Origin: a virus
Taxonomy: Duplodnaviria > Heunggongvirae > Uroviricota > Caudoviricetes
IMG/VR virus record: IMGVR_UViG_3300019790_000026
Span: 1 to 12,109 of that record
Direction: 5' to 3' (one strand)
Length of the DNA stretch: 12,109 bases
Of the stretch, positions 459 through 12,109 are shown one piece after another. The position numbers were made by a program, and so were the translations under genes. Numbering within the stretch: position 1 is the first letter of the stretch; each line of letters starts with the position of its first letter. Under the pieces are notes generated by a model. The model did not search any database. It was given only the letters and a program-made list of their open reading frames with translations, and was not told the origin of the DNA.

Positions 459-546
459 TCAGACAGGCGTTCTTCCTGCTCAGACAGAGATTTTTCGGTT
501 CGCGCGCTCAGGTTTTGCTGCTCAGTGGCGACCAGCTCCACGGCTC

Positions 547-2472
547 ATGACAGTGAAAGCAAAGCGTTTTCGCATCGGGGTGGAAGGTGCCACCACCGAC
601 GGACGCGAAATCCAGCGTGAATGGCTGGAACAGATGGCAGCCAGCTACAACCCGGCGGTGTATACCGCGCTGATTAACCTTGAGCACATCAAGTCTTATC
701 TGCCGGACAGCACCTTTAACCGCTACGGCAAGGTGACGGCGCTGTTTGCTGAGGAAATCACGGAAGGTCCGCTGGCAGGCAAGATGGCGCTGTATGCCGA
801 CGTTGAGCCAACGGAGTCCCTGGTGGAACTGGTGAAAAAACGCGACAAGTGGGGTGACTATGGGCCGCTGGATCAGATGCAGCTCACCACCGCCGCACGC
901 TACTGCCAGCTCATTATGAAGGAGCACAAAGAAGGGAAAGATTTCAAAGAGATTGACCTGCTGGCGCGCCAGTCGGAGCGCCATGCGCGGATCGGCAAGT
1001 TTAACAATGGCGGCAACGAAGCCGACTTAAACCCTAACGTCGCCAACCGCAACAAAGGCCCGCGTCGTCAGCCGGAAAAGAACGTTTTCACCGATGAACA
1101 GATTGAGAAGCTGGAAGAAATCTTCCATTCCTCCATGTTCAACTACCAGCGCCACTGGTGGGAAGCCGGAAAAACCAACCGCATCCGCAACCTGCTGAAG
1201 TCACGCCAGATCGGCGCGACCTTCTATTTTGCCCGTGAAGCCCTGATTGACGCCCTGCTAACCGGGCGTAACCAGATTTTCCTTTCCGCCAGCAAGGCAC
1301 AGGCCCACGTCTTTAAGCAGTACATCATCGACTTCGCCAAAGAAGTGGAGGTGGAGCTGAAAGGCGATCCGATAGTGCTTCCTAACGGGGCCACGCTGTA
1401 CTTCCTCGGCACCAATGCCCGCACGGCCCAGAGTTACCACGGCAACCTGTATCTGGATGAATATTTCTGGATACCGAAATTCCAAGAGCTGCGCAAAGTG
1501 GCTTCCGGTATGGCTATTCACAAAAAATGGCGACAAACCTATTTTTCCACGCCATCCAGCCTGACACACAGTGCTTATCCGTTCTGGTCCGGTGCGCTGT
1601 TCAACCGTGGGCGCAACAAAGCCGACAAGGTGGACATCGACCTGTCCCACAGCAATCTGGCCCCCGGCCTGCTGTGCACAGACGGGCAATACCGCCAGAT
1701 AGTCACCGTGGAAGATGCGGTGCGCGGCGGCTGTAACCTGTTCGACCTCGACCAGCTACGCATGGAGTACAGCCCGGACGAATACCAGAACCTGCTGATG
1801 TGCGAGTTCGTGGACGATCTCGCGTCCGTGTTCCCGCTCAGCGAGCTGCAAGCGTGCATGGTGGACAGTTGGGAAATCTGGACCGACTTTCATGCACTGG
1901 CCCTGCGCCCGTTTGGCTGGCGCGAAGTGTGGATCGGTTATGACCCGGCAAAAGGTACGCAGAACGGCGACAGTGCCGGATGCGTGGTGGTGGCACCGCC
2001 AGCCGTGCCGGGTGGTAAGTTCCGCATTCTTGAGCGTCACCAGTGGCGCGGGATGGACTTCCGCGCCCAGGCTGACGCCATCAAAAAACTGACCGAGCAG
2101 TACAACGTGACCTACATCGGCATCGACTCGACAGGTGTCGGCCACGGGGTTTACGAGAACGTGAAAGCGTTTTTTCCAGCCGTCCGGGAGTTTGTCTACA
2201 ACCCCAACGTTAAAAACGCCCTGGTACTCAAGGCCTACGACATTATCAGTCACCGTCGTCTGGAGTTTGACGCCGGACACACCGACATAGCGCAGTCATT
2301 TATGGCAATCCGTCGCGCCACCACCGCCAGCGGCAACCGCCCAACCTATGAAGCCAGCCGCAGCGAAGAAGCCAGCCATGCCGATCTGGCCTGGGCAACA
2401 ATGCACGCACTGTTTAACGAACCGCTGCAGGGCGAGTCCGCCAATACCAGCAATATTGTGGAGATTTTTTGA
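547..2472 (+). CDS. Terminase ATPase/large subunit (P2 gpP-like) with a foreign N-terminus resembling capsid scaffold/protease gpO (apparent fusion)
   Basis: From about codon 98 onward (KRDKWGD..., DFKEIDLL, SRQIGATFYFAREAL, NQIFLSASKAQAHVFK, LYFLGTNARTAQSYHGN) the ORF matches my recollection of the GpP terminase family. Residues 1-97 (KRFRIGVEGATTDGREI...INLEH...FNRYGKV) match the GPO scaffold N-terminal motifs. ATG at 547 is preferred over the tracked TTG at 391. The stop overlaps the portal start. Confidence 0.7.
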   Translation: MTVKAKRFRIGVEGATTDGREIQREWLEQMAASYNPAVYTALINLEHIKSYLPDSTFNRYGKVTALFAEEITEGPLAGKMALYADVEPTESLVELVKKRDKWGDYGPLDQMQLTTAARYCQLIMKEHKEGKDFKEIDLLARQSERHARIGKFNNGGNEADLNPNVANRNKGPRRQPEKNVFTDEQIEKLEEIFHSSMFNYQRHWWEAGKTNRIRNLLKSRQIGATFYFAREALIDALLTGRNQIFLSASKAQAHVFKQYIIDFAKEVEVELKGDPIVLPNGATLYFLGTNARTAQSYHGNLYLDEYFWIPKFQELRKVASGMAIHKKWRQTYFSTPSSLTHSAYPFWSGALFNRGRNKADKVDIDLSHSNLAPGLLCTDGQYRQIVTVEDAVRGGCNLFDLDQLRMEYSPDEYQNLLMCEFVDDLASVFPLSELQACMVDSWEIWTDFHALALRPFGWREVWIGYDPAKGTQNGDSAGCVVVAPPAVPGGKFRILERHQWRGMDFRAQADAIKKLTEQYNVTYIGIDSTGVGHGVYENVKAFFPAVREFVYNPNVKNALVLKAYDIISHRRLEFDAGHTDIAQSFMAIRRATTASGNRPTYEASRSEEASHADLAWATMHALFNEPLQGESANTSNIVEIF

Positions 2473-3497
2473 TGGGAAAGAGTAAGAAAAACCGCGCTGC
2501 GGCGACGAACCAGATCCAGCATAAAAACCAAACTTCAGCCGAAGCATTCAGCTTCGGTGATCCCGTTCCTGTTCTGGACCGCCGCGAATTACTGGACTAT
2601 GTGGAATGCGTAAAGATGGACCGCTGGTATGAGCCACCCGTAAGTTTTGACGGACTGGCGCGAACATTCCGCGCCGCCGTACACCACAGTTCACCGATTG
2701 CAGTAAAGTGCAACATTCTGACCAGCACCTACATCCCTCACCCGCTGCTCAGCCAGCAGGCGTTTTCACGTTTTGTGCAGGACTATCTGGTTTTTGGTAA
2801 CGCCTACCTGGAGAAACGCACGAACCGATTCGGTGAAGTTATCGCCCTTGAGCCTGCGCTGGCAAAATACACCCGACGCGGATTAGACCTAGATACCTAC
2901 TGGTTTGTGCAATACGGCATGACCACGCAGCCGTATCAGTTCACGAAAGGCAGCATTTTTCATCTGATGGAACCGGACATCAACCAGGAGATCTACGGCC
3001 TGCCCGGCTATCTTTCTGCCATCCCATCCGCCCTGCTCAACGAGTCCGCCACGCTGTTCCGCCGAAAGTATTACATTAACGGTAGTCATGCAGGCTTCAT
3101 CATGTACATGACCGATGCCGCGCAGAACCAGGAAGATGTGAACAACCTCCGCAATGCGATGAAAAGTGCCAAAGGCCCTGGCAACTTCCGCAACCTGTTT
3201 ATGTACTCGCCTAATGGTAAAAAAGACGGACTTCAGATTATCCCGTTGTCAGAAGTCACAGCGAAGGATGAGTTTCTGAATATCAAGAACGTGAGCCGTG
3301 ATGACATGATGGCGGCACACCGCGTGCCGCCGCAAATGATGGGAATTATGCCTAATAATGTCGGGGGGTTTGGGGATGTGGAGAAGGCTAGCAAGGTATT
3401 CGTAAGAAACGAATTGATGCCCCTGCAGAAACGATTGCAGGAACTAAATAACTGGTTGGACGAAGAAGTGCTCAATTTTTCAACCTATGAGCTTTAG
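2472..3497 (+). CDS. Portal protein (P2 gpQ-like)
   Basis: 341-aa ORF directly after the terminase gene with TGATG stop/start overlap. Size and position match P2 Q, and the sequence resembles the gpQ portal family. ATG at 2472 is preferred over the tracked TTG at 2469. Confidence 0.85.
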   Translation: MGKSKKNRAAATNQIQHKNQTSAEAFSFGDPVPVLDRRELLDYVECVKMDRWYEPPVSFDGLARTFRAAVHHSSPIAVKCNILTSTYIPHPLLSQQAFSRFVQDYLVFGNAYLEKRTNRFGEVIALEPALAKYTRRGLDLDTYWFVQYGMTTQPYQFTKGSIFHLMEPDINQEIYGLPGYLSAIPSALLNESATLFRRKYYINGSHAGFIMYMTDAAQNQEDVNNLRNAMKSAKGPGNFRNLFMYSPNGKKDGLQIIPLSEVTAKDEFLNIKNVSRDDMMAAHRVPPQMMGIMPNNVGGFGDVEKASKVFVRNELMPLQKRLQELNNWLDEEVLNFSTYEL

Positions 3498-3502
3498 TTT
3501 TA

Positions 3503-3533
3503 AAACGAAGACCATTAGGTCTTCGCTTTATTT
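3503..3533. terminator. Bidirectional intrinsic terminator shared by the convergent portal and retron RT genes
   Basis: Hairpin CGAAGACC (3506-3513), loop ATTA, GGTCTTCG (3518-3525), flanked by an A-run on the left and CTTTATTT on the right, so it reads as stem plus U-tract on both strands. The RT stop codon lies in the loop. Confidence 0.5.
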
Positions 3534-4477
3534 AAAGGGTTCTTTCCATATTTTTTTTCTAATTTGCTAATATAAGTTATTAATCTCCTATGGCTTTTTG
3601 AATCCACACTTAAAATAAATGACAACCATCCCCTAACGTGTTCTATCTCAGAAGACTTACCGCAAAATATATGATGTATCTTTGCTCTAATTTCTTTATA
3701 TTTTTCTCTACCTATCCCAACTTTCTCTTGTGAAATAACTAAACCTGTAACTTTCCTCTGACTACGAGGCCCACTAATACAAGTTTTTTTTGAGTTAATA
3801 ACCAATCCTTCACTTGGGATTATAGAAAATAAAAAATCACGTGCTTTAACAACCTTTTTCATAGACTGTGCAGATAAGGTGAGATCATCGGCATATCTCG
3901 TATATATCAAGCCCCGACTACCTGCATAACCCTGAATACGATAATCAAGTTTAGAACATATTAGATTAGCTAATTTAGGTGATGATGGAGCACCTTGTGG
4001 TAGCAGATTTTTATAACAACATATTTTTGTCAAAACTGAAGATATTAGTCGATTATAACCAAGAGAATGGAACACTCCAAAAACTTTGTTAGCAGTTAAA
4101 CTTGGGAAAAAATCCTCCAAATCAATATTCAGTATAAAGTTTGCCCCAATATGCGGGGTAGCATTATTCAAAATAGATTGGTGCTTTTCAAATCCAATAG
4201 AAAAAGGAGATGACGACAGTTTATCTAAAATGTTACGTAGAACCCATCCTTGTAAGGCTTTAAGTTCTCGAGAAGGTTGGTAAATGGTTCTCATTCTCTT
4301 CTCTGGGCCTTTCTTTTCTACAGTGTAGATCCTATAGCGAAAATCAGCTGTATAGATTAACAACCGAAGTGTTTCAACAGATATGCGAGTCGCCTTAGAC
4401 ATGTCATGCAAATTGTTCATGACAGGTAGGCCGAGATTTCTCAATCTAAAAGTGTTCAAATATTCAGCGGATTTCAT
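3515..4477 (-). CDS. ret: Retron reverse transcriptase, Ec86 / Retron-Eco1 type
   Basis: 320-aa ORF with reverse-transcriptase motifs (NIDLEDFFPS, LPQGAPSSPKLANL, YADDLTLS) and the retron-typical VTG motif (RKVTGLVIS). The translation matches my memory of the published Ec86 RT, and the gene sits immediately downstream of the msr-msd. Confidence 0.93.
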   Translation of the reverse strand: MKSAEYLNTFRLRNLGLPVMNNLHDMSKATRISVETLRLLIYTADFRYRIYTVEKKGPEKRMRTIYQPSRELKALQGWVLRNILDKLSSSPFSIGFEKHQSILNNATPHIGANFILNIDLEDFFPSLTANKVFGVFHSLGYNRLISSVLTKICCYKNLLPQGAPSSPKLANLICSKLDYRIQGYAGSRGLIYTRYADDLTLSAQSMKKVVKARDFLFSIIPSEGLVINSKKTCISGPRSQRKVTGLVISQEKVGIGREKYKEIRAKIHHIFCGKSSEIEHVRGWLSFILSVDSKSHRRLITYISKLEKKYGKNPLNKAKT

Positions 4478-4484
4478 GAAAGTT

Positions 4485-4496
4485 GCGCACCCTTAC
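4485..4496 (-). repeat. Retron a2 inverted repeat (pairs with a1 at 4641-4652)
   Basis: 12-nt exact reverse complement of 4641-4652. Confidence 0.85.
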
Positions 4497-4639
4497 GTCA
4501 GAAAAAACGGGTTTCCTGGTTGGCTCGGAGAGCATCAGGCGATGCTCTCCGTTCCAACAAGGAAAACAGACAGTAACTCAGATTCAATGCAGGATGCCGA
4601 AACAACATCCAGAGGTTGACCTTAATGATAAACCTCTCG

Positions 4640-5563
4640 CTAAGGGTGCGCATACGGAATCTTATCATAGTTAAATGTTGATTTTCTACGGTTTTCAAAA
4701 TTCATAATCTCAAGCCGCAATCGGTCAAGTGTCTTTCTATCAAAGACGCTCCTAACATAGCTAGCCCCCAAAGCAGTGACCTGATAACCATCAGTCATTT
4801 GAAGTATTTTTCGTTCATTTATTAGACGAGAAACAACGGATCTAACAATAATTTTAGATAAAACATCATCTTGCTTTATCGCTTTAAAAGCTAGTTCACA
4901 CAGTGTGCGGTAGTTGACACTATCCAGTAAATAGATACAAGGCAATAGAAACCGCTCTGCGTATAATATATTTCCAATATCTTTTGATACTTTATTTTCT
5001 TTCCTAACCTTCTTAATAGATGCCATTAATTTTTTATATAATCGTAATTTTCTGGCAACATCAATAGATGAATCACACATTTCTTTTAGTTCATTTGAAC
5101 TACAACGCAAAACAGATTTTGAATTAAACTTACGCAACAGGCGAACAGGACCATAGTTAATAAAGCTACGTTTTGATTTAAATTTTGCATCTTGAATGCA
5201 AATCAACTTTCTCCTTAAGTTTTCATTATTAGAGAACGCACCAAGCTCTGTGAAAGACCCCGGACTTTCAGGAAATAAAATTATTACATCGACAGCTTCA
5301 GCCAGAATATTTTCTAAACTTAAAAGGCTATGCTGCCCTTGACCAGCCAAAAGATCATCAAATAGATCTTCTGGATAAAATATATCAACATCACTGAACT
5401 TTGCTAAAAATTGTGATAATTGATGACGCCAAGATTGATGATTAGCAACGTCACCACCACATAGAAAAATGGTTATTTTAATATTAGCTCCTCGATAGAA
5501 GCCTTTCTTTGTGAGATGTCCTATAAGCTGTTGTTGCTGCTCATCGGTAAATTTTTTATTCAT
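4640..5563 (-). CDS. Retron effector: nucleoside 2-deoxyribosyltransferase-like (NDT) domain with a C-terminal putative DNA-binding region
   Basis: 307-aa ORF immediately upstream of msr-msd-ret on the same strand, with RBS GGGGAGA. The N-terminal region (IFLCGGD..., ILFPESPGSFTELGAF) fits the NDT/flavodoxin-like fold with the conserved Glu. Its TAG stop overlaps the a1 repeat. Confidence 0.85.
   Translation of the reverse strand: MNKKFTDEQQQQLIGHLTKKGFYRGANIKITIFLCGGDVANHQSWRHQLSQFLAKFSDVDIFYPEDLFDDLLAGQGQHSLLSLENILAEAVDVIILFPESPGSFTELGAFSNNENLRRKLICIQDAKFKSKRSFINYGPVRLLRKFNSKSVLRCSSNELKEMCDSSIDVARKLRLYKKLMASIKKVRKENKVSKDIGNILYAERFLLPCIYLLDSVNYRTLCELAFKAIKQDDVLSKIIVRSVVSRLINERKILQMTDGYQVTALGASYVRSVFDRKTLDRLRLEIMNFENRRKSTFNYDKIPYAHP
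4641..4652 (-). repeat. Retron a1 inverted repeat; the presumed priming G follows at 4640
   Basis: 12-nt exact reverse complement of 4485-4496, at the 5-prime end of msr. Confidence 0.85.
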
Positions 5564-5704
5564 AATCTCCCCGCTTTTTTTTCTACTTTATACATCAAGT
5601 TATGAATAGATCCAATCTCCATACCACATGGCGCGCGCTCGTATCCCCGCCACGCCTGCCCGCTTTATGCAGTGGTTTTCATGCACATGCATAACATGAG
5701 CAAA

Positions 5705-5730
5705 AGCCCGCCAGTTCTGGCGGATCTGAG
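5705..5730 (-). terminator. Putative intrinsic terminator (minus-strand sense)
   Basis: Perfect hairpin CCGCCAG-N3-CTGGCGG (5708-5726) followed on the minus strand by GCTTTTGC. Confidence 0.3.
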
Positions 5731-6035
5731 CAAAGACGATCCTCAATCGATCATGCGATTTCATGCAGCATAGTCATGCACTGTCAAGGAAGTGAAAATC
5801 CGTATCTGAATGGCCACTTGAAAAACGGATCATACGGGTTTACAAAGATGAATGTTCGCTGTGAACGGGAAGCGGAAGTTAACTTTCAGATAACATAATC
5901 CATATGCACGAGAACCTCTAAAATAGAATGGGACACCTAAGCGGGGTACTTACAACGATTCTTTCCATATTCACAGTTAACACTCTGTTTGGCGTATTTT
6001 TATTCAAATAGCAAACACCAATAAAAGGAGTTTCC

Positions 6036-6371
6036 ATGAACAATATTCCCCCTATACCACAGTTAGGAATTTATGTCTCAAAAATCGATCCCACCCTACG
6101 TATCACTGTAACCGATGTTGATATTGTTGATGGTGAGGATGATTCTCCTGATGATGAATTGTTTTATTTAGTCCACTGGATCGAGGGGGAAGATGAAAGT
6201 GATATGACAGCAATGGGATTTGAGCTAGACCCAGTAGAGTGGCAGGCTTTCGTTGAATCTGAGCAATTAGTGTTTGAGCGTGATCCGTACATGGATTCAA
6301 TCCCCGAAAATTCAAACTTGGCAAAGATTCGGGATTTTCTCATGAAGACTAAACAGAATGATCATTCGTAA
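6036..6371 (+). CDS. Hypothetical small, strongly acidic protein (111 aa)
   Basis: Strong RBS AAAAGGAG 6 nt upstream of ATG. Very Asp/Glu-rich (DVDIVDGEDDSPDDE, EGEDESD). AT-rich relative to the phage core. Divergent from the retron effector. Confidence 0.7.
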   Translation: MNNIPPIPQLGIYVSKIDPTLRITVTDVDIVDGEDDSPDDELFYLVHWIEGEDESDMTAMGFELDPVEWQAFVESEQLVFERDPYMDSIPENSNLAKIRDFLMKTKQNDHS

Positions 6372-6563
6372 GTGTAAGCATCCATCAGGAAAATGGTTTT
6401 GTAAGTGAATCATCAACTTTTAGAGAGTCTCAGACACTCCCACTTCTGCTTCTGACACAAAGCGGACGATCACTTATCAAAATAACCGCCCACCTTACGC
6501 CTTATTTCACTCATTGCCCAAACTAGCCCCCATCAGAATGAATCCTCCTGGGGGCAACATTTC

Positions 6564-6797
6564 TTAATGCAGCCAGCTGTCGTCCTCCCACACCTTCTGC
6601 ATAATTTTCATCACTTGTTTTCTTTCTTCATCCAGTTGCAGTCCGGTTAGTTCCACACCGTTAGAGCTACCTTTGCGAATGCGAATTACCGTTTTGGGAT
6701 ACAGGGGGCGCAGATTGCGGTAAAGCTCGGATTCAAGGGCGTCCAGGGTAGACTGGCTAATCTTCTGCTCTTTATCGATCATTATTTCAATGCGCAT
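6564..6797 (-). CDS. DinI-family protein (DNA-damage-inducible protein I-like)
   Basis: 77-aa product MRIEIMIDKEQKISQSTLDALESELYRNLRPLYP...VWEDDSWLH has the DinI length and pattern (MRIEV..., C-terminal acidic W motif). RBS GGTGA upstream. ATG at 6797 is preferred over the tracked 101-aa extension. Confidence 0.8.
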   Translation of the reverse strand: MRIEIMIDKEQKISQSTLDALESELYRNLRPLYPKTVIRIRKGSSNGVELTGLQLDEERKQVMKIMQKVWEDDSWLH

Positions 6798-6807
6798 AAA
6801 AGTCACC

Positions 6808-6996
6808 TCAGCTGATGACATCCATTGAGCGGTTGTATTCGTGGCTTCTGATTTTTGCCATGAGTTCATCAGTCAATTCAGAAACCCACTGCAGAGCCAG
6901 CCCCTTCTCTTCATCACTACACTCACTAGCCGCTACAAGCTTAAGAAAAAAATCAATGCGCTGGAGCTTCAAAGACTCCAAAAAATAGTCCTGCAT
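6808..6996 (-). CDS. Hypothetical 62-aa protein, first gene of the SOS-boxed operon (possibly the N-terminal part of a Tum-like antirepressor)
   Basis: ORF with strong RBS AGGAGG, directly downstream of the LexA-box promoter and 10 nt upstream of the DinI-like gene. Confidence 0.5.
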   Translation of the reverse strand: MQDYFLESLKLQRIDFFLKLVAASECSDEEKGLALQWVSELTDELMAKIRSHEYNRSMDVIS

Positions 6997-7036
6997 CTTT
7001 CCTCCTATGACACCAAAACAATACTGTATACATAAC

Positions 7037-7056
7037 CACTGTTTATATTTACAGTA
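7037..7056. promoter_or_regulatory. LexA (SOS) box overlapping a putative promoter for the orf62/DinI-like operon
   Basis: cACTGTttatatttACAGta is a perfect CTGT-N8-ACAG with AT-rich spacer. A second half-site (TACTGTATAC) lies at 7022-7031. A TTTACA / TATACT promoter-like pair is on the minus strand. Confidence 0.7.
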
Positions 7057-7148
7057 TATAATAATCTTACTGATGTAAAACGTTTTTTTACGTTCATCGG
7101 CCTGATATGCCTGGTATTATTAAGAGCACGAATTGTCAACCCGCGTAA

Positions 7149-8594
7149 TTAATACAGGTTCCGCCACTTATCATCTTCCTTCAGACGCTGGTTCCGATAG
7201 AAGATACGCAGGCCTGCTCCTGACGGAATACTGCCGCCGCGAAGGAGCAAATCGACTTCTTTCTCGCTGCCATCAAATCCCCTGGACTTCAGTTCATAGA
7301 CGAGCTGCTGTCGCTGATGGTCTGTAATTCGCTGTTTGTAGTCTTTACGCCGTTTCGGTTTCACCTGGCGTAACCTTGCAGCCAGTTCCCGGCGCTCTTT
7401 TTTGCTCATACTGTGCAGGTAATTGTGCAACTCCTTGTCATTCATACGGGTAATATCCGTTCTGGAGTCCCCATCAGCTGATTTGTCTTTCCCTTGTTGG
7501 TTCAAATTTTCAGCAAGGGGACAGTTATTGCCACGAGTCCAAGGGGCGCAAGCGCCCTGGTCGGCTGCCGCCTCCTGAACGTCAACGGCCTTACGAACCA
7601 TTTTCCACTTCACCGCATGAGTGCAGATCTTGCCCTCTGCAATGGGTGACCAGATGCCATAAATACGAATACCGTGATCGCCATATGCGGTCGGTTCTTC
7701 GTTGATTTCATAAGCAGTTCTGATGAGGTGATATTTGCGGGGAACCAGTACGCCGCCCTGCTTCATGATGTAGGTGGCAAAACAACCAGCATCAGCAGCA
7801 GCCAGGATTGCATCAAGACGCGGGTTATCCAGTACCGGCGCACCTGCTTTTTTGTCACCCTGTTGCCTTGCCGCCTGACCAGCCAGCAATCGCAGTTCAC
7901 GGTAAGCCTGACGCCCCGGAATGCCAAAGAAGCGGAATTGCTGAACACGATGCAGAGACGCCCAGGCATTAACGTATTCAGCGTTATCACGCAGGGATTT
8001 ACCCGTTTCCTTGCTGATCTCCCCAGCCAGACCACGCCCGTCAATGTTCTTACTGATGTATTTCGCGATATAGCTTGTTGGCGTACCTTTGCGCGGGTTT
8101 ATCAGCTCAGACTTAAAGCGTGGTCCCGTGTTATTGCCCAGCTCCTCGCGGTCTTCACGGATGGCAAACTTACGCAGTAATGCAGTGATGGCGCGGCGGT
8201 CTTTTTTACGCATGAAACACATGAGATGCCAGTGCACAGTACCGTCATGATGCGGCTCAGCTACCGCACCTGCAGCAACACGCCCGATCTCTGCGGTTGC
8301 ACTCATGACGTAATGTGGCAGTTTCTCTTTTGCCACCTCATTAATCGGTACGCATGGCAGGCAGTGAATCTGAGCCAGAAAACCATCTACCAGCGTTGAA
8401 TCTTCAGTCAGATCGGTAAGCAGCCAGATTTCTGGTGCGGTTAATAAATGAGGTTGCGCTGGGTTCAACTTGTTCCGCAGAATCTGCACATTCATGCCAG
8501 CACGTTCTGCCAGTTGCACCAGGTTGTGGCGCAATGCGAATGCACGACAGGCTTCATCAAAATGTGGATGTTTGGAAACTTGGTAATCAAACAT
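7149..8594 (-). CDS. In-frame fusion ORF: 186 CII-like N-terminus (~115 aa) joined to the C-terminal catalytic part of a gpA-type rolling-circle replication initiator
   Basis: N-terminus [24 protein letters not shown]...[26 protein letters not shown] matches my recollection of phage 186 CII. The downstream part carries the HUH-like HWHLM motif and the paired-tyrosine motif [12 protein letters not shown] typical of P2 gpA / phiX174 A proteins. ATG at 8594 with RBS AGAGG. Confidence 0.65.
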
Positions 8595-8626
8595 GGTCAA
8601 TGCCTCTGATGTATTTCAGAATCGAA

Positions 8627-8848
8627 CTAATTAAGGTTTAGATTGCATTCTGAAAGCGCATCAACGGTCATTGCTGCTATGTTGATCATCACTTTTTCGC
8701 GTTTTTTATCTTTGCGCAGTCGGTGACGGATAAGGCGTCCATCAGCCAACATGTCATTGATGGTATCGATGGATAGCCCTGTCAGCTCGCTATAGCGTTC
8801 AATAGTCACATGAGGGGTGGTAAGAGTGATTGAAATGTTAGGTCTCAT
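8627..8848 (-). CDS. Apl/Cox-like small HTH protein (first early-lytic gene: excisionase / transcription regulator)
   Basis: 73-aa ORF divergent from the CI gene and immediately upstream of the CII-like ORF, as apl is in phage 186. HTH-like segment [21 protein letters not shown]. Confidence 0.5.
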
Positions 8849-8967
8849 GATGCAACATTCCTCGTTTAATGATGATTAATCAGGACGAATACGGATCGTT
8901 TGTATTTTGTGAACACCATAAACATACGATCGCACAGTGAAATCGTCAAGATAAAAGTTCACTTGGA
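8849..8967. promoter_or_regulatory. Immunity switch region between apl-like and cI-like genes (lytic/lysogenic promoters and candidate operators)
   Basis: 119-bp divergent intergenic region containing related motifs ATACGGATCGTTTGTAT and ATACGATCGCAC. Its position matches the pR/pL switch of 186-type phages. Confidence 0.4.
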
Positions 8968-9543
8968 GTGACCATGAATTTGGAGAAAGGCGGACGAGGC
9001 GCTATAGAGCGCATGGTAGAAGCTTATGGATTCAAGACTCGACAGGCGTTGTGCGATCATTTAGGAATCTCTAAAAGTACACTCGCCACACGCTACATGC
9101 GTGACTCATTCCCAGCAGAATGGGTAATCCAGTGCGCCCTTGAAACAGGCACCTCGCTTAATTGGCTCACAACCGGGCATGGTTCAAAGCAAACTTCAGG
9201 TAATACAAATACTATGGAAGTTGCTAAATATGTATTATCTGATGGGGCCTTGTGTGAAGACGGTTTTTATATTTTCGATAGAGAATTTCTACCGTCGGCA
9301 TTCAAGAATCTTTTTGTAATCACAGATAATAATTCTGAATTTATTTGTGATAAGGAATTTGATGATATACGTGATGGTAAATGGGTAATAAGTATTGATG
9401 GCGAAATAACGATCCGTGACATTACTCGTTTACCCGGTGGAAGAATCTTCGTCGAGGGTGGAAATAGAGCCTTCGAGTGCAAGATAGAAGATGTTGAAAT
9501 AATTGGGAAAATTATAAGTTTAACAATTAAGTACGTTAGGTAA
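8968..9543 (+). CDS. cI: CI-type immunity repressor (phage 186 CI-like)
   Basis: 191 aa (186 CI is 192 aa). N-terminal HTH (TRQALCDHLGISKSTLATRYMRD) with a C-terminal oligomerisation-like domain. RBS GGAGTGA. Divergent from the apl-like gene and upstream of int. Confidence 0.8.
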   Translation: MTMNLEKGGRGAIERMVEAYGFKTRQALCDHLGISKSTLATRYMRDSFPAEWVIQCALETGTSLNWLTTGHGSKQTSGNTNTMEVAKYVLSDGALCEDGFYIFDREFLPSAFKNLFVITDNNSEFICDKEFDDIRDGKWVISIDGEITIRDITRLPGGRIFVEGGNRAFECKIEDVEIIGKIISLTIKYVR

Positions 9544-9558
9544 TACCGGGAGGAAACT

Positions 9559-9750
9559 ATGCTTGGTAAGGTATTTTTTGTGGTTTTATCATGCTCTTTG
9601 TTATTAAACCCACTAACTACCTATGCTAAAAATTATCCTTGTTCTGGGAAAAAGGGAGGTGTCTCTCACTGTACCTCCGATGGAAAGTTCGTTTGCAATG
9701 ATGGAACTATTAGTAAATCAAAAAAAATCTGTACTAAAAACTCGCGATAA
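9559..9750 (+). CDS. Small secreted Cys-rich protein (63 aa) inserted between cI and int
   Basis: RBS GGAGGAAACT-ATG. Predicted signal peptide [23 protein letters not shown], then a Lys-rich mature peptide of about 40 aa with 5 Cys. Confidence 0.55.
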
Positions 9751-9936
9751 ATTTTGCTTTTATATCTGCGCCTAATATAACAATGAGCCGCAGGCTAACC
9801 GCAAAAGTCACATACTCACATAGCAAAAAATAGCTAACTTCATTATGGCTTCAGTGAGATGTATGGTCGCAGGATTTCATACATTGACACTGGTTATACA
9901 TACAGTAAAAATGCTCTCTACTGGAGGGCATTTTTT

Positions 9937-10953
9937 ATGGCAGTACGAAAACTCACCACAGGAAAATGGCTTTGCGAATGTTACCCCGCCGGACGTAGTG
10001 GACGTCGTGTGCGTAAACAATTCGCCACCAAAGGCGAAGCTCTGGCTTTTGAGCGTCACACGATGGAAGAAACCGAAGCAAAGCCCTGGCTGGGCGAATC
10101 AGTGGATCGTCGGACATTGAAAGACGTGATTGAGCTATGGTTCAAACTACATGGTAAATCTCTGACAGCTGGGCAGCATGTCTATGACAAACTGCTGTTG
10201 ATGGTTGACGCTCTGGGCAATCCCCTTGCAACTGATCTAACCTCTAAAATGTTTGCCCACTATCGAGATAAACGCCTGACAGGTGAGATCTACTTCAGCG
10301 AGAAATGGAAGAAAGGAGCAAGCCCGGTCACCATTAACCTGGAGCAAAGCTATCTAAGTAGTGTTTTTAGCGAACTATCCCGCCTGGGCGAATGGTCGTA
10401 TCCGAACCCACTGGAGAACATGCGAAAATTCACCATCGCAGAAAAAGAGATGGCATGGCTTACCCATGAGCAGATTGTTGAACTGCTGGCTGATTGCAAA
10501 CGTCAGGACCCAATTCTGGCACTGGTAGTCAAGATATGCCTAAGCACAGGCGCACGCTGGCGAGAAGCAATAAATCTTACCCGCTCGCAAGTGACCAAAT
10601 ACCGAATTACCTTTGTAAGAACGAAGGGGAAGAAAAACAGAAGCATCCCTATCAGTAAAGAGCTTTACGAAGAGATCATGGCGCTTGATGGGTTCAATTT
10701 CTTTACAGACTGCTATTTTCAATTTTTATCCGTGATGGAAAAAACGTCTATCGTGCTCCCTCGCGGTCAACTGACACACGTTCTGCGCCATACGTTTGCG
10801 GCGCACTTCATGATGTCGGGTGGAAATATCCTTGCTTTGCAAAAAATCCTCGGACATCACGATATAAAAATGACTATGCGCTATGCCCATTTAGCACCCG
10901 ATCATCTTGAGACGGCTCTGAGATTCAACCCCCTCGCAACGCTAGAAGTGTGA
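9937..10953 (+). CDS. int: Tyrosine integrase (P2/186 Int family)
   Basis: 338 aa. Catalytic residues in context: ...STGARWREA..., ...HVLRHTFA..., ...MRYAHL.... RBS GGAGGG. ATG at 9937 is preferred over the tracked start at 9859. Confidence 0.9.
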   Translation: MAVRKLTTGKWLCECYPAGRSGRRVRKQFATKGEALAFERHTMEETEAKPWLGESVDRRTLKDVIELWFKLHGKSLTAGQHVYDKLLLMVDALGNPLATDLTSKMFAHYRDKRLTGEIYFSEKWKKGASPVTINLEQSYLSSVFSELSRLGEWSYPNPLENMRKFTIAEKEMAWLTHEQIVELLADCKRQDPILALVVKICLSTGARWREAINLTRSQVTKYRITFVRTKGKKNRSIPISKELYEEIMALDGFNFFTDCYFQFLSVMEKTSIVLPRGQLTHVLRHTFAAHFMMSGGNILALQKILGHHDIKMTMRYAHLAPDHLETALRFNPLATLEV

Positions 10954-11061
10954 TCTACTGGTGCAAAAATAACATCATCCCCCACTAGCTGAGTTAATTG
11001 CGTCAGAGTAAACTTTTATCAGTATATAAGTTCACTTTTATTCAATATATTAAGAGATTAC

Positions 11062-11394
11062 ATGGCTATCATTACCGTAAAAAAACATACTGTCAAAAAA
11101 GCATTATCGATGGGATTTGAAAAAGTACTTGACGATCGTGGTTATGATTCTGGGGCGTACTACGTTAAAGATGGCAAAAAGTGGATTTTTGATATTGTTG
11201 CGCTTAAGCAAAAACAAGGAGCAACCTCAGATGATGAGTTAAAAATCCTTGGGTATGATGTTGATACATATAATCTTGTAAAAAATGAATCTAATGAACT
11301 GGCTGAACTTTATCAAGATATTGCAGTTGAAGATGGTGAGCCAATGTATCTAGAGGGTGGCGTGTACTTATATCCTGATGGTTCTATCCGTTAG
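11062..11394 (+). CDS. Hypothetical protein (110 aa), AT-rich, just downstream of int
   Basis: ORF with AT-rich promoter-like upstream region. No family recognised. Composition contrasts with the GC-rich sequence that follows it. Confidence 0.5.
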   Translation: MAIITVKKHTVKKALSMGFEKVLDDRGYDSGAYYVKDGKKWIFDIVALKQKQGATSDDELKILGYDVDTYNLVKNESNELAELYQDIAVEDGEPMYLEGGVYLYPDGSIR

Positions 11395-11528
11395 CATGCA
11401 AATTGGCAGCACAACCGGGTTGTTCCAAATGGCGACAAAGTGGCGGCAGCGGTTGGCATTACCCCGTAATAACCACCACTGACCACCAACCCAACTTATT
11501 GTTTTTACTATAACTTATTGTTTTCATT

Positions 11529-11594
11529 AACCCGTTTACATAAATGGGTTTTTTGTTATCTAAAACTTATCTACTACCCTGCAACCCTCTCAAC
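11529..11594. repeat. Inverted repeat copy A (66 bp, perfect reverse complement of 12044-12109)
   Basis: Direct comparison: 11529-11594 equals the reverse complement of 12044-12109 at every position. Confidence 0.95.
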
Positions 11595-12074
11595 CATCCT
11601 CAAAATCTCCTCGCGCGATAGCGGCTTACGGTCGGTGACAAAATGCAGCGTCATCCCCTCAATAAACGCATCAAGCGCGCGGGCGGTTCCGGGTTCAAAC
11701 CATTGTTCGAGCGTTTGCTGACTGCGCTGCATCCAGTTTTGCATTACCGTTTTTAATAGCGGTTTTCGGCTAGCCAGCGCGTAGAGCTGGTACATCAGCT
11801 CCATGTTATCCGGCGTTGCAACCTGTGAGCTGTAGATCATATCGGTGATAGCCTGGCATGCGCCCGGAGCATCACTAACATCGCTAAAAAATGCCTGATA
11901 TTGCCGGGACATGATCTCAGTAAAACTGCTGAACGCCTCCAGTAACAACTCATCAATTCCTGAAAAATAGTAGGTCATCGATCCCAACGGTACCCCGGCA
12001 AGGGTAGCAATTTTGCGGTGCGTAACAGCATGTATTCCGTAAAGTTGAGAGGGTTGCAGGGTAGTAGATAAGTT
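11574..12074 (-). pseudogene. TetR-family transcriptional regulator, apparently 5-prime truncated by the inverted repeat
   Basis: The minus-strand frame is open from 12074 to the TAG at 11576..11574. It encodes a TetR-type HTH ([27 protein letters not shown]) and a ligand-binding-like C-terminal domain. There is no ATG upstream of the HTH (only a TTG at 11987, inside the HTH). The first codons and the last codons plus stop lie inside the two inverted-repeat copies. Confidence 0.65.
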
Positions 12075-12109
12075 TTAGATAACAAAAAACCCATTTATGT
12101 AAACGGGTT
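12044..12109. repeat. Inverted repeat copy B (66 bp, cut by the window edge, so it may be longer)
   Basis: Perfect reverse complement of 11529-11594. The window ends inside or at the end of the repeat. Confidence 0.95.

What the first reader, a model, noticed from the sequence alone, without database searches (positions are those of the whole stretch)
6564..7060. SOS-controlled two-gene operon (orf62 then DinI-like), possibly a split Tum-type antirepressor
A perfect LexA box overlaps a promoter reading into a 62-aa ORF and then a DinI-family ORF. Phage 186 is SOS-inducible through the LexA-repressed antirepressor Tum (146 aa), which as I recall has a DinI-like C-terminal region. The two ORFs here total about 144 codons in overlapping frames. 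That fits either a frameshifted tum or a natural two-protein variant. Either way, DNA damage probably still signals into this prophage remnant.
Basis: partly seen in the sequence, partly recalled or inferred. Interest (0 to 1): 0.55.

Follow-up and report, generated by a model that had tools for sequence, protein, structure and literature searches.

The report
SOS-controlled split Tum antirepressor operon
This is the DNA-damage switch of a 186/Fels-2-type prophage, a LexA-repressed promoter driving a 62-aa antirepressor gene and a separate DinI-like gene; it is real and intact in this E. coli B/BL21 prophage remnant, but it is a known module whose identical copy has been tested genetically in E. 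coli HS.

Summary
On the minus strand a p95-like promoter (-35 TTTACA 7074-7079, -10 TACTGT 7051-7056) is overlapped by two overlapping LexA boxes (7037-7056 and 7022-7041), not one. It reads into orf62 (6996-6808) and then a 77-aa DinI-family gene (6797-6564). The genes do not overlap: a 10-nt spacer carrying a Shine-Dalgarno separates them, and the 101-aa ORF is a mechanical artefact.

orf62 is the split-off N-terminal antirepressor module of 186 Tum. BLASTP finds nothing, but profile searches link them in register. It is not a frameshifted tum. None of 114 orf62-type loci is fused, both genes have dN/dS of about 0.09, and the module is 96-98% identical in intact phages such as Fels-2.

The window is E. 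coli B/BL21(DE3). Its orf62 and DinI-like proteins carry the same RefSeq accessions as those of the inducible E. coli HS prophage. There a published precise deletion of this ORF, or lexA(Ind-), abolishes mitomycin-C induction. PSP3 annotates the pair as tumA/tumB.

Verdict: already known, low interest. Two minor possibly new points are the colicin-like double LexA operator specific to this Tum class, and the match between Tum class and the class of CI N-terminal domain.

The parts
7074..7079 (-). -35 hexamer TTTACA of the p95-like SOS promoter
   Evidence: Read directly from the sequence. It lies 17 nt upstream of TACTGT, the same design as the annotated 186 p95 promoter. TT[TC]A[CA]A followed 16-18 nt later by TACTGT is present in 86 of 92 unique orf62-type upstream regions.
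7051..7056 (-). -10 hexamer TACTGT, which is the left arm of LexA box 1
   Evidence: Assigned by analogy with the annotated 186 p95 -10, which has the identical hexamer. It matches only 3 of 6 consensus positions, so the strict scan missed it.
7037..7056 (-). LexA box 1, TACTGTAAATATAAACAGTG (CTGT-N8-ACAG)
   Evidence: It is identical in E. coli HS and Fels-2. CTG-N10-CAG is present in 89 of 92 unique upstream regions of orf62-type genes.
7022..7041 (-). LexA box 2, CAGTGGTTATGTATACAGTA, overlapping box 1 by 5 bp with a non-canonical GTG left arm
   Evidence: The pattern CTG-N10-CAGTG-N10-CAG occurs in 77 of 92 unique orf62-type upstream regions, 0 of 66 186-type and 0 of 67 PSP3-type. It has the same layout as the ColE1 cea double operator and matches it at 29 of 35 positions (my count on the two sequences).
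7001..7006 (-). Shine-Dalgarno AGGAGG of orf62
   Evidence: Read directly from the sequence. It is conserved across the related loci.
6808..6996 (-). orf62 = tum/tumA-type antirepressor gene (62 aa, stop TGA 6808-6810); BL21 ECD_RS04410, WP_001154431.1
   Evidence: phrog_698 at E=5.9e-38, with profile links to the 186 Tum N-terminus. dN/dS is 0.09 against more than 1 in the other frames. The protein has the same RefSeq accession as E. coli HS ECHS_RS04495, whose precise deletion abolishes mitomycin-C induction (PMC11195241). AlphaFold2 predicts a helical hairpin at pLDDT 89.9.
6804..6809 (-). Shine-Dalgarno GAGGTG of the DinI-like gene, overlapping the orf62 stop codon
   Evidence: Read directly from the sequence. 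The gap from the stop codon to the DinI ATG is 10 nt in 84 of 100 split orf62-type loci.
6564..6797 (-). DinI-like gene (tumB type, 77 aa); BL21 ECD_RS04415, WP_001217575.1
   Evidence: Pfam DinI E=6.6e-23. PDB 1GHH DinI E=2.7e-6. 41% identical to 186 Tum residues 71-145, 78% to PSP3 TumB and 100% to the Fels-2 DinI-family protein. dN/dS is 0.085-0.10.
6526..6555 (-). GC-rich hairpin just after the DinI stop codon (GCCCCCA...TGGGGGC); possible weak terminator
   Evidence: RNA fold of 6575-6372 gives z=-3.7. There is no clear U-run and the terminator scan did not call it. Its position is analogous to the 186 partial terminator t95a.
6454..6501 (.). 22-bp hairpin between the convergent DinI-like gene and orf111; probable terminator for orf111
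   Evidence: The role is inferred.
8974..9543 (+). CI repressor, the presumed target of orf62/Tum
   Evidence: It differs from the E. coli HS CI at 3 of 189 residues. It is 38% identical to the Fels-2 CI and 32% to the 186 CI. It carries the N-terminal-domain motif SFPAEWVIQC that accompanies orf62-type Tum in 93 of 97 loci.
8627..8848 (-). Apl/Cox-position gene, the first gene of the CI-repressed lytic operon and the expected output of Tum action
   Evidence: Same protein accession (WP_001247707.1) in BL21 and HS. The role is inferred from the 186 gene map.

Best explanation
This is the SOS operon of a 186/Fels-2-type P2-family prophage, preserved in the E. coli B/BL21 remnant.

In undamaged cells LexA occupies a double operator of two overlapping boxes, probably as two dimers. 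The operator covers the -10 region and the transcription start of a p95-like promoter. DNA damage activates RecA, LexA cleaves itself, and a bicistronic mRNA is made.

The first gene (orf62) encodes a 62-aa helical-hairpin antirepressor. It is the stand-alone equivalent of the N-terminal half of 186 Tum (PSP3 TumA; called 'tum' in E. coli HS). It inactivates the CI repressor non-covalently, probably by docking on the CI N-terminal DNA-binding domain. That opens the early lytic promoter.

The second gene encodes a DinI-like protein, the equivalent of the Tum C-terminal half and of the short internal-start Tum products of 186 (PSP3 TumB). It presumably binds RecA filaments and tunes the SOS signal. 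It is an accessory part.

Shown here: the anatomy, the homology, conservation and purifying selection, and protein identity to the HS genes. Shown in the literature: the identical HS ORF and cleavable LexA are both needed for mitomycin-C induction. Inferred: LexA occupancy of both boxes, direct binding of orf62 to CI, the docking site, the DinI role, and that the circuit still fires in BL21. There its only outputs would be Apl and a truncated CII-A fusion, because the remnant cannot replicate or build virions.
For: - LexA boxes. Promoter layout equals the annotated 186 p95.
- Gene anatomy and RefSeq annotation.
- DinI family membership.
- Homology of orf62 to the Tum N-terminus at profile level.
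- Same position after replication gene A, with 96.6% DNA identity to the Fels-2 module.
- PSP3 annotates tumA ('UV induction of prophage') and tumB.
- Lemire 2011 (PMC3121763) states that Fels-2 and PSP3 have a split tum, with the upstream half as the antirepressor.
- E. coli HS: the delta-tum primers fuse exactly the start and stop codons of this ORF, and delta-tum or lexA(Ind-) abolishes mitomycin-C-induced lysis and viral foci (PMC11195241).
- The HS and BL21 proteins share RefSeq accessions. The CI proteins differ at 3 of 189 residues.
- Architecture by class: orf62-type is never fused, with 100 split, 14 lacking DinI and 0 fused.
- dN/dS is about 0.09 for both genes.
- Tum class matches the class of CI N-terminal domain.
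- About 1125 of 5426 complete E. coli genomes carry the module.
Against: - No pairwise BLASTP similarity between orf62 and 186 Tum or PSP3 TumA.
- The hhalign probability is only about 40%, because the alignments are shallow.
- The strict promoter scan finds no sigma-70 site, since the -10 matches only 3 of 6 positions.
- Box 2 has a non-canonical GTG arm.
- No experiment on BL21 itself was found.
- Direct binding of this Tum class to CI has not been shown. The HS data show necessity only.
- One locus, L027 from Pantoea stewartii, pairs an orf62-type Tum with a 186-type CI.
- Non-polar deletions of dinI homologues in the Gifsy-1 and Gifsy-3 prophages had no significant effect on induction (PMC3121763), so the DinI role is uncertain.
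Confidence: 0.9

Rival explanations
1. Frameshifted or nonsense-mutated tum pseudogene: a once-fused 186-type Tum that broke in this decaying prophage.
For: The prophage is a remnant with a 3,357-bp cII-to-A deletion and missing late genes. 62 + 77 = 139 codons is close to the 146 of 186 Tum.
Against: - The same split layout, at 96-98% DNA identity, occurs in intact phages (Fels-2, RE2010, Klebsiella phages) and in about 1125 E. coli genomes.
- None of 114 orf62-type loci is fused, whereas 78 of 81 186-type loci are.
- The DinI gene has its own Shine-Dalgarno and ATG and lies in a different frame (start offset 199 nt), so fusing the two would need two mutations.
- Both ORFs are under purifying selection, with dN/dS about 0.09.
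- The identical pair works in the inducible HS prophage.
Confidence: 0.02
2. orf62 is an unrelated small filler ORF and the only functional SOS gene here is the DinI homologue; the antirepressor, if any, lies elsewhere, as in Gifsy prophages where dinI comes first and the antirepressor follows.
For: No BLASTP similarity to Tum. RefSeq calls it a 'hypothetical protein'. It has no Pfam family.
Against: - Profile-level homology to the Tum N-terminus, in register.
- Strong purifying selection.
- 14 of 114 orf62-type loci keep orf62 behind the LexA box without any DinI gene.
- A precise deletion of the identical ORF in HS, which leaves the DinI gene intact, abolishes induction.
Confidence: 0.03
3. 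The module is intact in sequence but functionally vestigial in BL21. It may be induced by DNA damage, but it has no phenotypic consequence because the remnant lacks replication and morphogenesis genes.
For: cII and A are fused and truncated, and the capsid and lysis genes are partly deleted. No BL21 experiment was found.
Against: This does not contradict the main explanation; it only limits the outcome. CI, the Apl-position gene and integrase are intact, so derepression could still have effects such as Apl expression or action in trans on incoming relatives.
Confidence: 0.45

Closest known systems
tum of the E. coli HS 'P2' prophage (Phollow preprint, PMC11195241)
   Same: The 62-aa protein (WP_001154431.1) and the DinI-like protein (WP_001217575.1) are identical. 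Both elements sit beside rcdA, have the same -35 hexamer and LexA box 1, and have CI proteins differing at 3 of 189 residues. Delta-tum and lexA(Ind-) block mitomycin-C induction.
   Different: The HS prophage is complete and inducible. The BL21 copy is a remnant with different cargo downstream, namely orf111 and retron Ec86 instead of two hypothetical genes. DNA identity is about 95% across 6566-8269.
Fels-2 STM2728 + STM2726.1 and PSP3 TumA + TumB
   Same: A two-gene split Tum behind a LexA box, directly after replication gene A. Versus Fels-2: 96.6% DNA identity, orf62 97% and DinI 100% identical at the protein level. PSP3 TumB is 78% identical. The literature describes both phages as having a split tum.
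   Different: The Fels-2 CI is only 38% identical to the window's CI. PSP3 TumA belongs to another sequence class (phrog_1993) with no BLASTP similarity to orf62. PSP3 has a single LexA box and a 3-nt, in-frame gap between the two genes.
Coliphage 186 Tum (146 aa) and its p95 SOS operon
   Same: A LexA-repressed promoter whose -10 is the TACTGT arm of the box, in the same genomic position and orientation. The N-terminal module is homologous at profile level and the C-terminal DinI-like module is 41% identical. 186 also makes the DinI-like part separately from an internal GTG start.
   Different: 186 fuses both modules in one polypeptide, has one LexA box, and carries orf97 in the operon. Its CI N-terminal domain has the ISYDF motif rather than FPxxW.
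Gifsy-1/2/3 dinI-gfoA/gftA operons (Lemire et al. 2011)
   Same: A LexA-controlled prophage operon that pairs a DinI homologue with a small antirepressor acting non-covalently on a non-cleavable repressor.
   Different: The gene order is reversed, with dinI first. The phages are lambdoid, and the antirepressors and repressors belong to unrelated families.
Double overlapping SOS boxes of colicin operons (ColE1 cea)
   Same: The layout CTG-N10-CAGTG-N10-CAG, matching the ColE1 operator at 29 of 35 positions (my count). Colicin double boxes bind two LexA dimers and give very tight repression (PMC2994835).
   Different: The downstream genes differ. Binding of two LexA dimers here has not been tested.
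E. coli DinI (PDB 1GHH)
   Same: Same Pfam family, same length class, and an alignment over residues 1-75.
   Different: It is phage-borne and the second gene of an antirepressor operon. RecA binding has not been tested.

Membership tests
Tum-type LexA-controlled antirepressor module of 186-like phages | A LexA operator overlapping the promoter of the gene | tested here: met
   Boxes at 7037-7056 and 7022-7041 overlap the -10 TACTGT. They are conserved in 89 of 92 unique upstream regions. LexA dependence is shown genetically for the HS copy.
Tum-type LexA-controlled antirepressor module of 186-like phages | Located directly downstream of replication gene A, in the same orientation, at the end of the early region | tested here: met
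   The truncated A gene ends at 7149 and the promoter follows at 7051-7079. The order is the same in 186, Fels-2, PSP3 and HS.
Tum-type LexA-controlled antirepressor module of 186-like phages | Sequence homology of the antirepressor part to the 186 Tum N-terminal region | tested here: met
   BLASTP is negative. Reciprocal PHROG profile hits are in register: Tum 1-70 against phrog_698 at 5.9e-6, and orf62 against phrog_8554 at 1e-8 and phrog_1993 at 2e-3. hhalign gives E=3e-4.
Tum-type LexA-controlled antirepressor module of 186-like phages | Antirepressor and DinI-like parts fused in one polypeptide (186 Tum in the strict sense) | tested here: not met
   A stop codon, a 10-nt spacer and a frame change separate them. 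None of 114 orf62-type loci is fused. It is therefore the split TumA/TumB form, not the fused 186 form.
Tum-type LexA-controlled antirepressor module of 186-like phages | Required for SOS induction of the prophage | not testable with these tools
   Literature only: deletion of the identical ORF in E. coli HS abolishes mitomycin-C induction (PMC11195241).
Tum-type LexA-controlled antirepressor module of 186-like phages | Binds CI and blocks its DNA binding | not testable with these tools
   There is only indirect support. Tum class matches the class of CI N-terminal domain in 93 of 97, 65 of 70 and 70 of 73 loci. The best class-specific columns lie in the N-terminal domain.
DinI family (Pfam PF06183) | Match to the family profile above the curated cut-off | tested here: met
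   81.3 bits against a cut-off of 24.2, E=6.6e-23, covering profile positions 1-63 of 63.
DinI family (Pfam PF06183) | Similarity to the solved DinI protein over its full length | tested here: met
   1GHH at E=2.7e-6, residues 1-75 on 1-77.
DinI family (Pfam PF06183) | Binds RecA filaments and modulates SOS | not testable with these tools
   Inferred from family membership. The 186 record annotates the short Tum products as modulating SOS induction.
Colicin-type double SOS operator | Two 20-bp LexA boxes overlapping, offset by 15 bp (CTG-N10-CAGTG-N10-CAG) | tested here: met
   Window 7022-7056. The arrangement aligns with the ColE1 cea operator.
Colicin-type double SOS operator | Binding of two LexA dimers with tight repression and delayed induction | not testable with these tools
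   Known for colicins (PMC2994835). Untested here.

The most novel reading that the evidence does not exclude
Tum antirepressor modules fall into at least three sequence classes: 186-type, PSP3-type and orf62-type. Each class is tied to a class of CI N-terminal (DNA-binding) domain rather than to the whole repressor or its immunity type. The signature is at 186 CI position 53: F, V and W respectively.

Within the orf62 class, CI C-terminal domains have diverged to the level seen between classes. CTD identity is 0.36 within the class against about 0.30 between classes, while NTD identity is 0.67 within against about 0.43 between. TumA itself stays about 87% identical.

If TumA docks on that conserved surface, the TumA made by the dead BL21 prophage could act in trans during SOS on any incoming or co-resident Fels-2/HS-class phage, whatever its immunity. 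It could induce such a phage or prevent it from lysogenising. The colicin-like double LexA operator, which is specific to this class, would then set a high damage threshold for that decision.
Probability: 0.3. Interest if true: 0.4.

Novelty: already known. Interest (0 to 1): 0.15.

Why it matters
The finding adds little to biology. The split Tum arrangement is in the literature for Fels-2 and PSP3, and the identical gene has been deleted and shown to be needed for induction in E. coli HS.

The practical value is in annotation. In BL21(DE3), and in roughly a fifth of complete E. coli genomes, the antirepressor is still labelled 'hypothetical protein', and in some phage records 'levan regulatory protein'. 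BL21 users should know that DNA damage probably switches on an antirepressor and an extra DinI-like protein from this remnant, which sits next to retron Ec86.

Two side observations could be followed up cheaply: the double LexA operator, and the match between Tum class and the class of CI N-terminal domain.

Tried and rejected
- Pairwise BLASTP of orf62 against 186 Tum and PSP3 TumA found nothing, even with word size 2. Profile methods were needed.
- The strict sigma-70 and terminator scan of 6300-7300 found no promoter and only a spurious terminator inside the coding region.
- Bunny et al. 2002 (PMC151935), the primary Fels-2 tum paper, is not held in the library. Its content is cited only through Lemire 2011.
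- A Foldseek search of the orf62 model against PDB gave only generic helical hairpins, with no hit at E<=0.001, so it was not informative.
- An Rfam gathering-threshold scan of the window found nothing.
- A literature search for SOS or transcriptome data on this BL21 locus found nothing usable.
- I did not compute a heterology index for the LexA boxes, because I could not reproduce the published matrix reliably.
- I considered the frameshift hypothesis and the 'DinI-only' hypothesis and rejected both (see the rival explanations).
- My first regular expression for the double box was wrong and gave 0 hits. It was corrected.

Full report
**What the window is.** Positions 834-12046 are 100% identical to E. 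coli BL21(DE3) NC_012971.2, and the same element is present in other B strains. It is a 186/Fels-2-like P2-family prophage remnant next to rcdA. On the minus strand the gene order is: integrase and cI (both on the plus strand), an Apl-position gene, a cII-A in-frame fusion left by a 3,357-bp deletion, the finding, a convergent orf111, retron Ec86 (effector and reverse transcriptase), then portal and terminase.

**Checking the observation.** Read on the minus strand, the region contains the following, in order:
- TTTACA (7079-7074), then 17 nt, then TACTGT (7056-7051).
- A 20-bp LexA box, TACTGTAAATATAAACAGTG (7056-7037).
- AGGAGG followed by the ATG at 6996 of a 62-codon ORF that ends with TGA at 6810-6808.
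- GAGGTG overlapping that stop codon.
- The ATG at 6797 of a 77-codon ORF that ends at 6564.

The LexA box is the only site in 12 kb within 3 mismatches of the consensus, and 0 of 200 shuffles produced one. It is also the only CTGT-N8-ACAG, against 0.10 expected. The strict promoter scan reports nothing, because TACTGT matches TATAAT at only 3 positions. The annotated 186 p95 promoter has the same design, TTCACA-18 nt-TACTGT, with the LexA site starting at the -10.

RefSeq, Fels-2 and PSP3 all annotate the 234-nt gene, and homology to DinI starts at its Met1. The two genes are adjacent and do not overlap, and they lie in different frames.

**A second LexA box.** Directly after box 1, and sharing CAGTG with it, is CAGTGGTTATGTATACAGTA (7041-7022). 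The combined pattern CTG-N10-CAGTG-N10-CAG is present in 77 of 92 distinct upstream regions of orf62-type genes. It is absent from all 66 186-type and all 67 PSP3-type upstream regions.

It has the same architecture as the colicin E1 operator, TGCTGTATATAAAACCAGTGGTTATATGTACAGTA, and matches it at 29 of 35 positions by my count. I recalled that sequence from memory and then confirmed it in ColE1 NC_001371, immediately upstream of the colicin E1 start codon (METAVAYYKDG). [quoted passage not shown] Binding of two dimers at this site is an inference.

**What the two proteins are.** The second protein is a clear DinI-family member:
- Pfam E=6.6e-23.
- PDB 1GHH E=2.7e-6.
- 41% identical to 186 Tum residues 71-145.

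That alignment begins exactly at the GTG that the 186 record annotates as the start of the shortest Tum product, 'modulates SOS induction'. So even 186 makes this module separately.

orf62 has no Pfam family and no BLASTP similarity to 186 Tum or PSP3 TumA. Profiles do connect them:
- orf62 belongs to phrog_698 (5.9e-38) and also hits phrog_8554 (1e-8) and phrog_1993 (2e-3).
- 186 Tum 1-70 hits phrog_1993 (1.5e-23), phrog_8554 (3e-12) and phrog_698 (5.9e-6, positions 6-44 on 6-44).
- PSP3 TumA is in phrog_1993 (2.7e-32).
- hhalign of the orf62 family against the Tum N-terminus gives E=3e-4 over columns 3-43, in register. The shared motif is C-x5/6-[IL]A[LI]-x-[LW][IV][AS]E[IL].

AlphaFold2 predicts a two-helix hairpin for orf62 (pLDDT 89.9) with the conserved Cys in the loop. 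A PDB fold search was uninformative.

**Frameshift or natural split.** The split is natural.
- The 621-bp module is 96-98% identical in intact phages (Fels-2, RE2010, vB_EcoM-813R9, many Klebsiella phages). It occurs in 1125 of 5426 complete E. coli genomes.
- Across the 276 related loci scored, architecture follows the sequence class.

| N-terminal class | Fused to DinI | Split | No DinI gene | Other |
|---|---|---|---|---|
| 186-type | 78 | 0 | 1 | 2 |
| orf62-type | 0 | 100 | 14 | 0 |
| PSP3-type | 0 | 51 | 30 | 0 |

- Both genes are under purifying selection. dN/dS is 0.09 for orf62 and 0.085-0.10 for the DinI-like gene. The same orf62 nucleotides read in the other two frames give values above 1.

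**What is already known.** The PSP3 record names the pair tumA ('similar to 5' end 186 tum; UV induction of prophage') and tumB. Lemire et al. 2011 state that Fels-2 and PSP3 have tum split in two. [quoted passage not shown] 2002, which I could not read).

The most direct evidence comes from the Phollow preprint (PMC11195241), which deleted 'tum' of the E. coli HS prophage. Its junction primers are ATAGGAGGAAAG-ATG-TGA-GGTGACTTTTATGCGCATTG. The two halves match the window exactly at 6994-7008 and 6788-6810. The deletion therefore removes precisely orf62 and leaves the DinI-like gene intact. Delta-tum and lexA(Ind-) both abolish mitomycin-C-induced lysis and viral foci.

The HS prophage sits beside rcdA, as the BL21 remnant does. 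Its two proteins carry the same RefSeq accessions as those of BL21 (WP_001154431.1 and WP_001217575.1). Its CI differs from the window's at 3 of 189 residues. Its -35 hexamer and LexA box 1 are identical to the window's.

**Mechanism.** LexA cleavage derepresses the promoter. orf62/Tum then inactivates CI, and the DinI-like protein modulates RecA. The first step is supported genetically in HS and by sequence here. Direct binding to CI is known only for 186 Tum (cited).

In BL21 the expected targets are intact: CI, its operator region and the Apl-position gene. The cI-side block (8258-10830) is 99.96% identical to the fuller prophage in strain C. Replication and morphogenesis genes are gone, however. 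The outcome would be limited to transcription of Apl and the CII-A fusion, or to effects in trans. This part is inference.

**A side result: Tum class and CI class.** The window's orf62 is 97% identical to that of Fels-2, but the two CI proteins are only 38% identical. Across loci, the Tum class predicts a short motif in the CI N-terminal domain.

| Tum class | CI N-terminal motif | Loci with the motif |
|---|---|---|
| orf62-type | xFP[ASH][ED]W..xC | 93 of 97 |
| 186-type | [IVM]SYDF...C | 65 of 70 |
| PSP3-type | FPGDVV..C | 70 of 73 |

The most class-specific, within-class-conserved CI columns lie at 186 CI positions 25-27, 30, 37, 45, 51 and 53. Position 53 is the strongest, with F, W and V in the three classes.

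Within the orf62 class, CI C-terminal domains are about as diverged as between classes (0.36 against about 0.30 identity). N-terminal domains are not (0.67 against about 0.43), and TumA averages 0.87. This fits docking on the DNA-binding domain, but shared ancestry could also produce the pattern. One locus breaks the rule: L027 from Pantoea stewartii.

**Verdict.** The 'natural split Tum' reading is supported and the frameshift reading is rejected. The system is already known and has been tested genetically on an identical copy. Interest is low. The residual value lies in annotating a BL21 'hypothetical protein' and in the two side observations.

Noticed in passing
window 3515-5563 (minus strand): Retron Ec86/Eco1: a 320-aa reverse transcriptase (3515-4477) and a 307-aa 'retron St85 family effector' (4640-5563). 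They sit in the cargo slot between the SOS operon and the portal gene. E. coli HS and Fels-2 carry unrelated hypothetical genes in that slot. Rfam found no msr/msd match at gathering threshold.
   Followed up: partly
window 539-843 and 12044-12109: Relative to BL21(DE3), these two end pieces are inverted copies of nearby sequence (L039 1461-1157 and 12484-12419). The inversion creates a mechanical 693-aa ORF that joins a GPO-scaffold N-terminus to the terminase. This could be a strain or assembly difference or an edited window. It was not resolved.
   Followed up: partly
window 7149-8600 (minus strand), junction at 8258-8269: A 3,357-bp deletion relative to the prophage in strain C (NZ_CP029371), with 12 bp of overlap at the junction. 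It fuses the cII N-terminus in frame to the C-terminal part of replication gene A, giving a 483-aa ORF. RefSeq annotates two separate pseudogene fragments instead.
   Followed up: partly
window 6036-6371 (plus strand): orf111 is an acidic 111-aa protein in phrog_17127 (E=2e-70) with unknown function and no Pfam family. It converges on the SOS operon, and a 22-bp hairpin at 6454-6501 lies between them.
   Followed up: no
L027 (Pantoea stewartii ATCC 8199), CI at 3189-3764 and TumA at 10001-10186: This is the only locus that pairs an orf62-type TumA (84% identical) with a 186-type CI (60% identical to the 186 CI, motif TISYDLAAFC). It is either a recombinant that may not be inducible, or a counter-example to the proposed Tum-CI N-terminal-domain specificity.
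   Followed up: partly
loci L010, L012, L021, L024, L029-L036, L038 and 30 PSP3-type loci: Many TumA-type genes stand behind their LexA box with no DinI-like gene downstream: 14 of 114 orf62-type loci and 30 of 81 PSP3-type loci. The DinI module is therefore dispensable to the architecture.
   Followed up: partly
database names of orf62 homologues (P0021; Klebsiella phage records H19 and H21): Some sources name this 62-aa protein 'levan regulatory protein' or 'levan regulatory domain protein'. Most call it hypothetical, and none calls it Tum. This looks like propagated misannotation.
   Followed up: no
window 9559-9750 (plus strand): A 63-aa ORF between cI and int has a signal-peptide-like N-terminus and several Cys residues ([34 protein letters not shown]...). 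It is annotated as hypothetical (WP_001321204.1 in BL21). E. coli HS has a hypothetical ORF at the same position under a different accession, WP_001513672.1.
   Followed up: no
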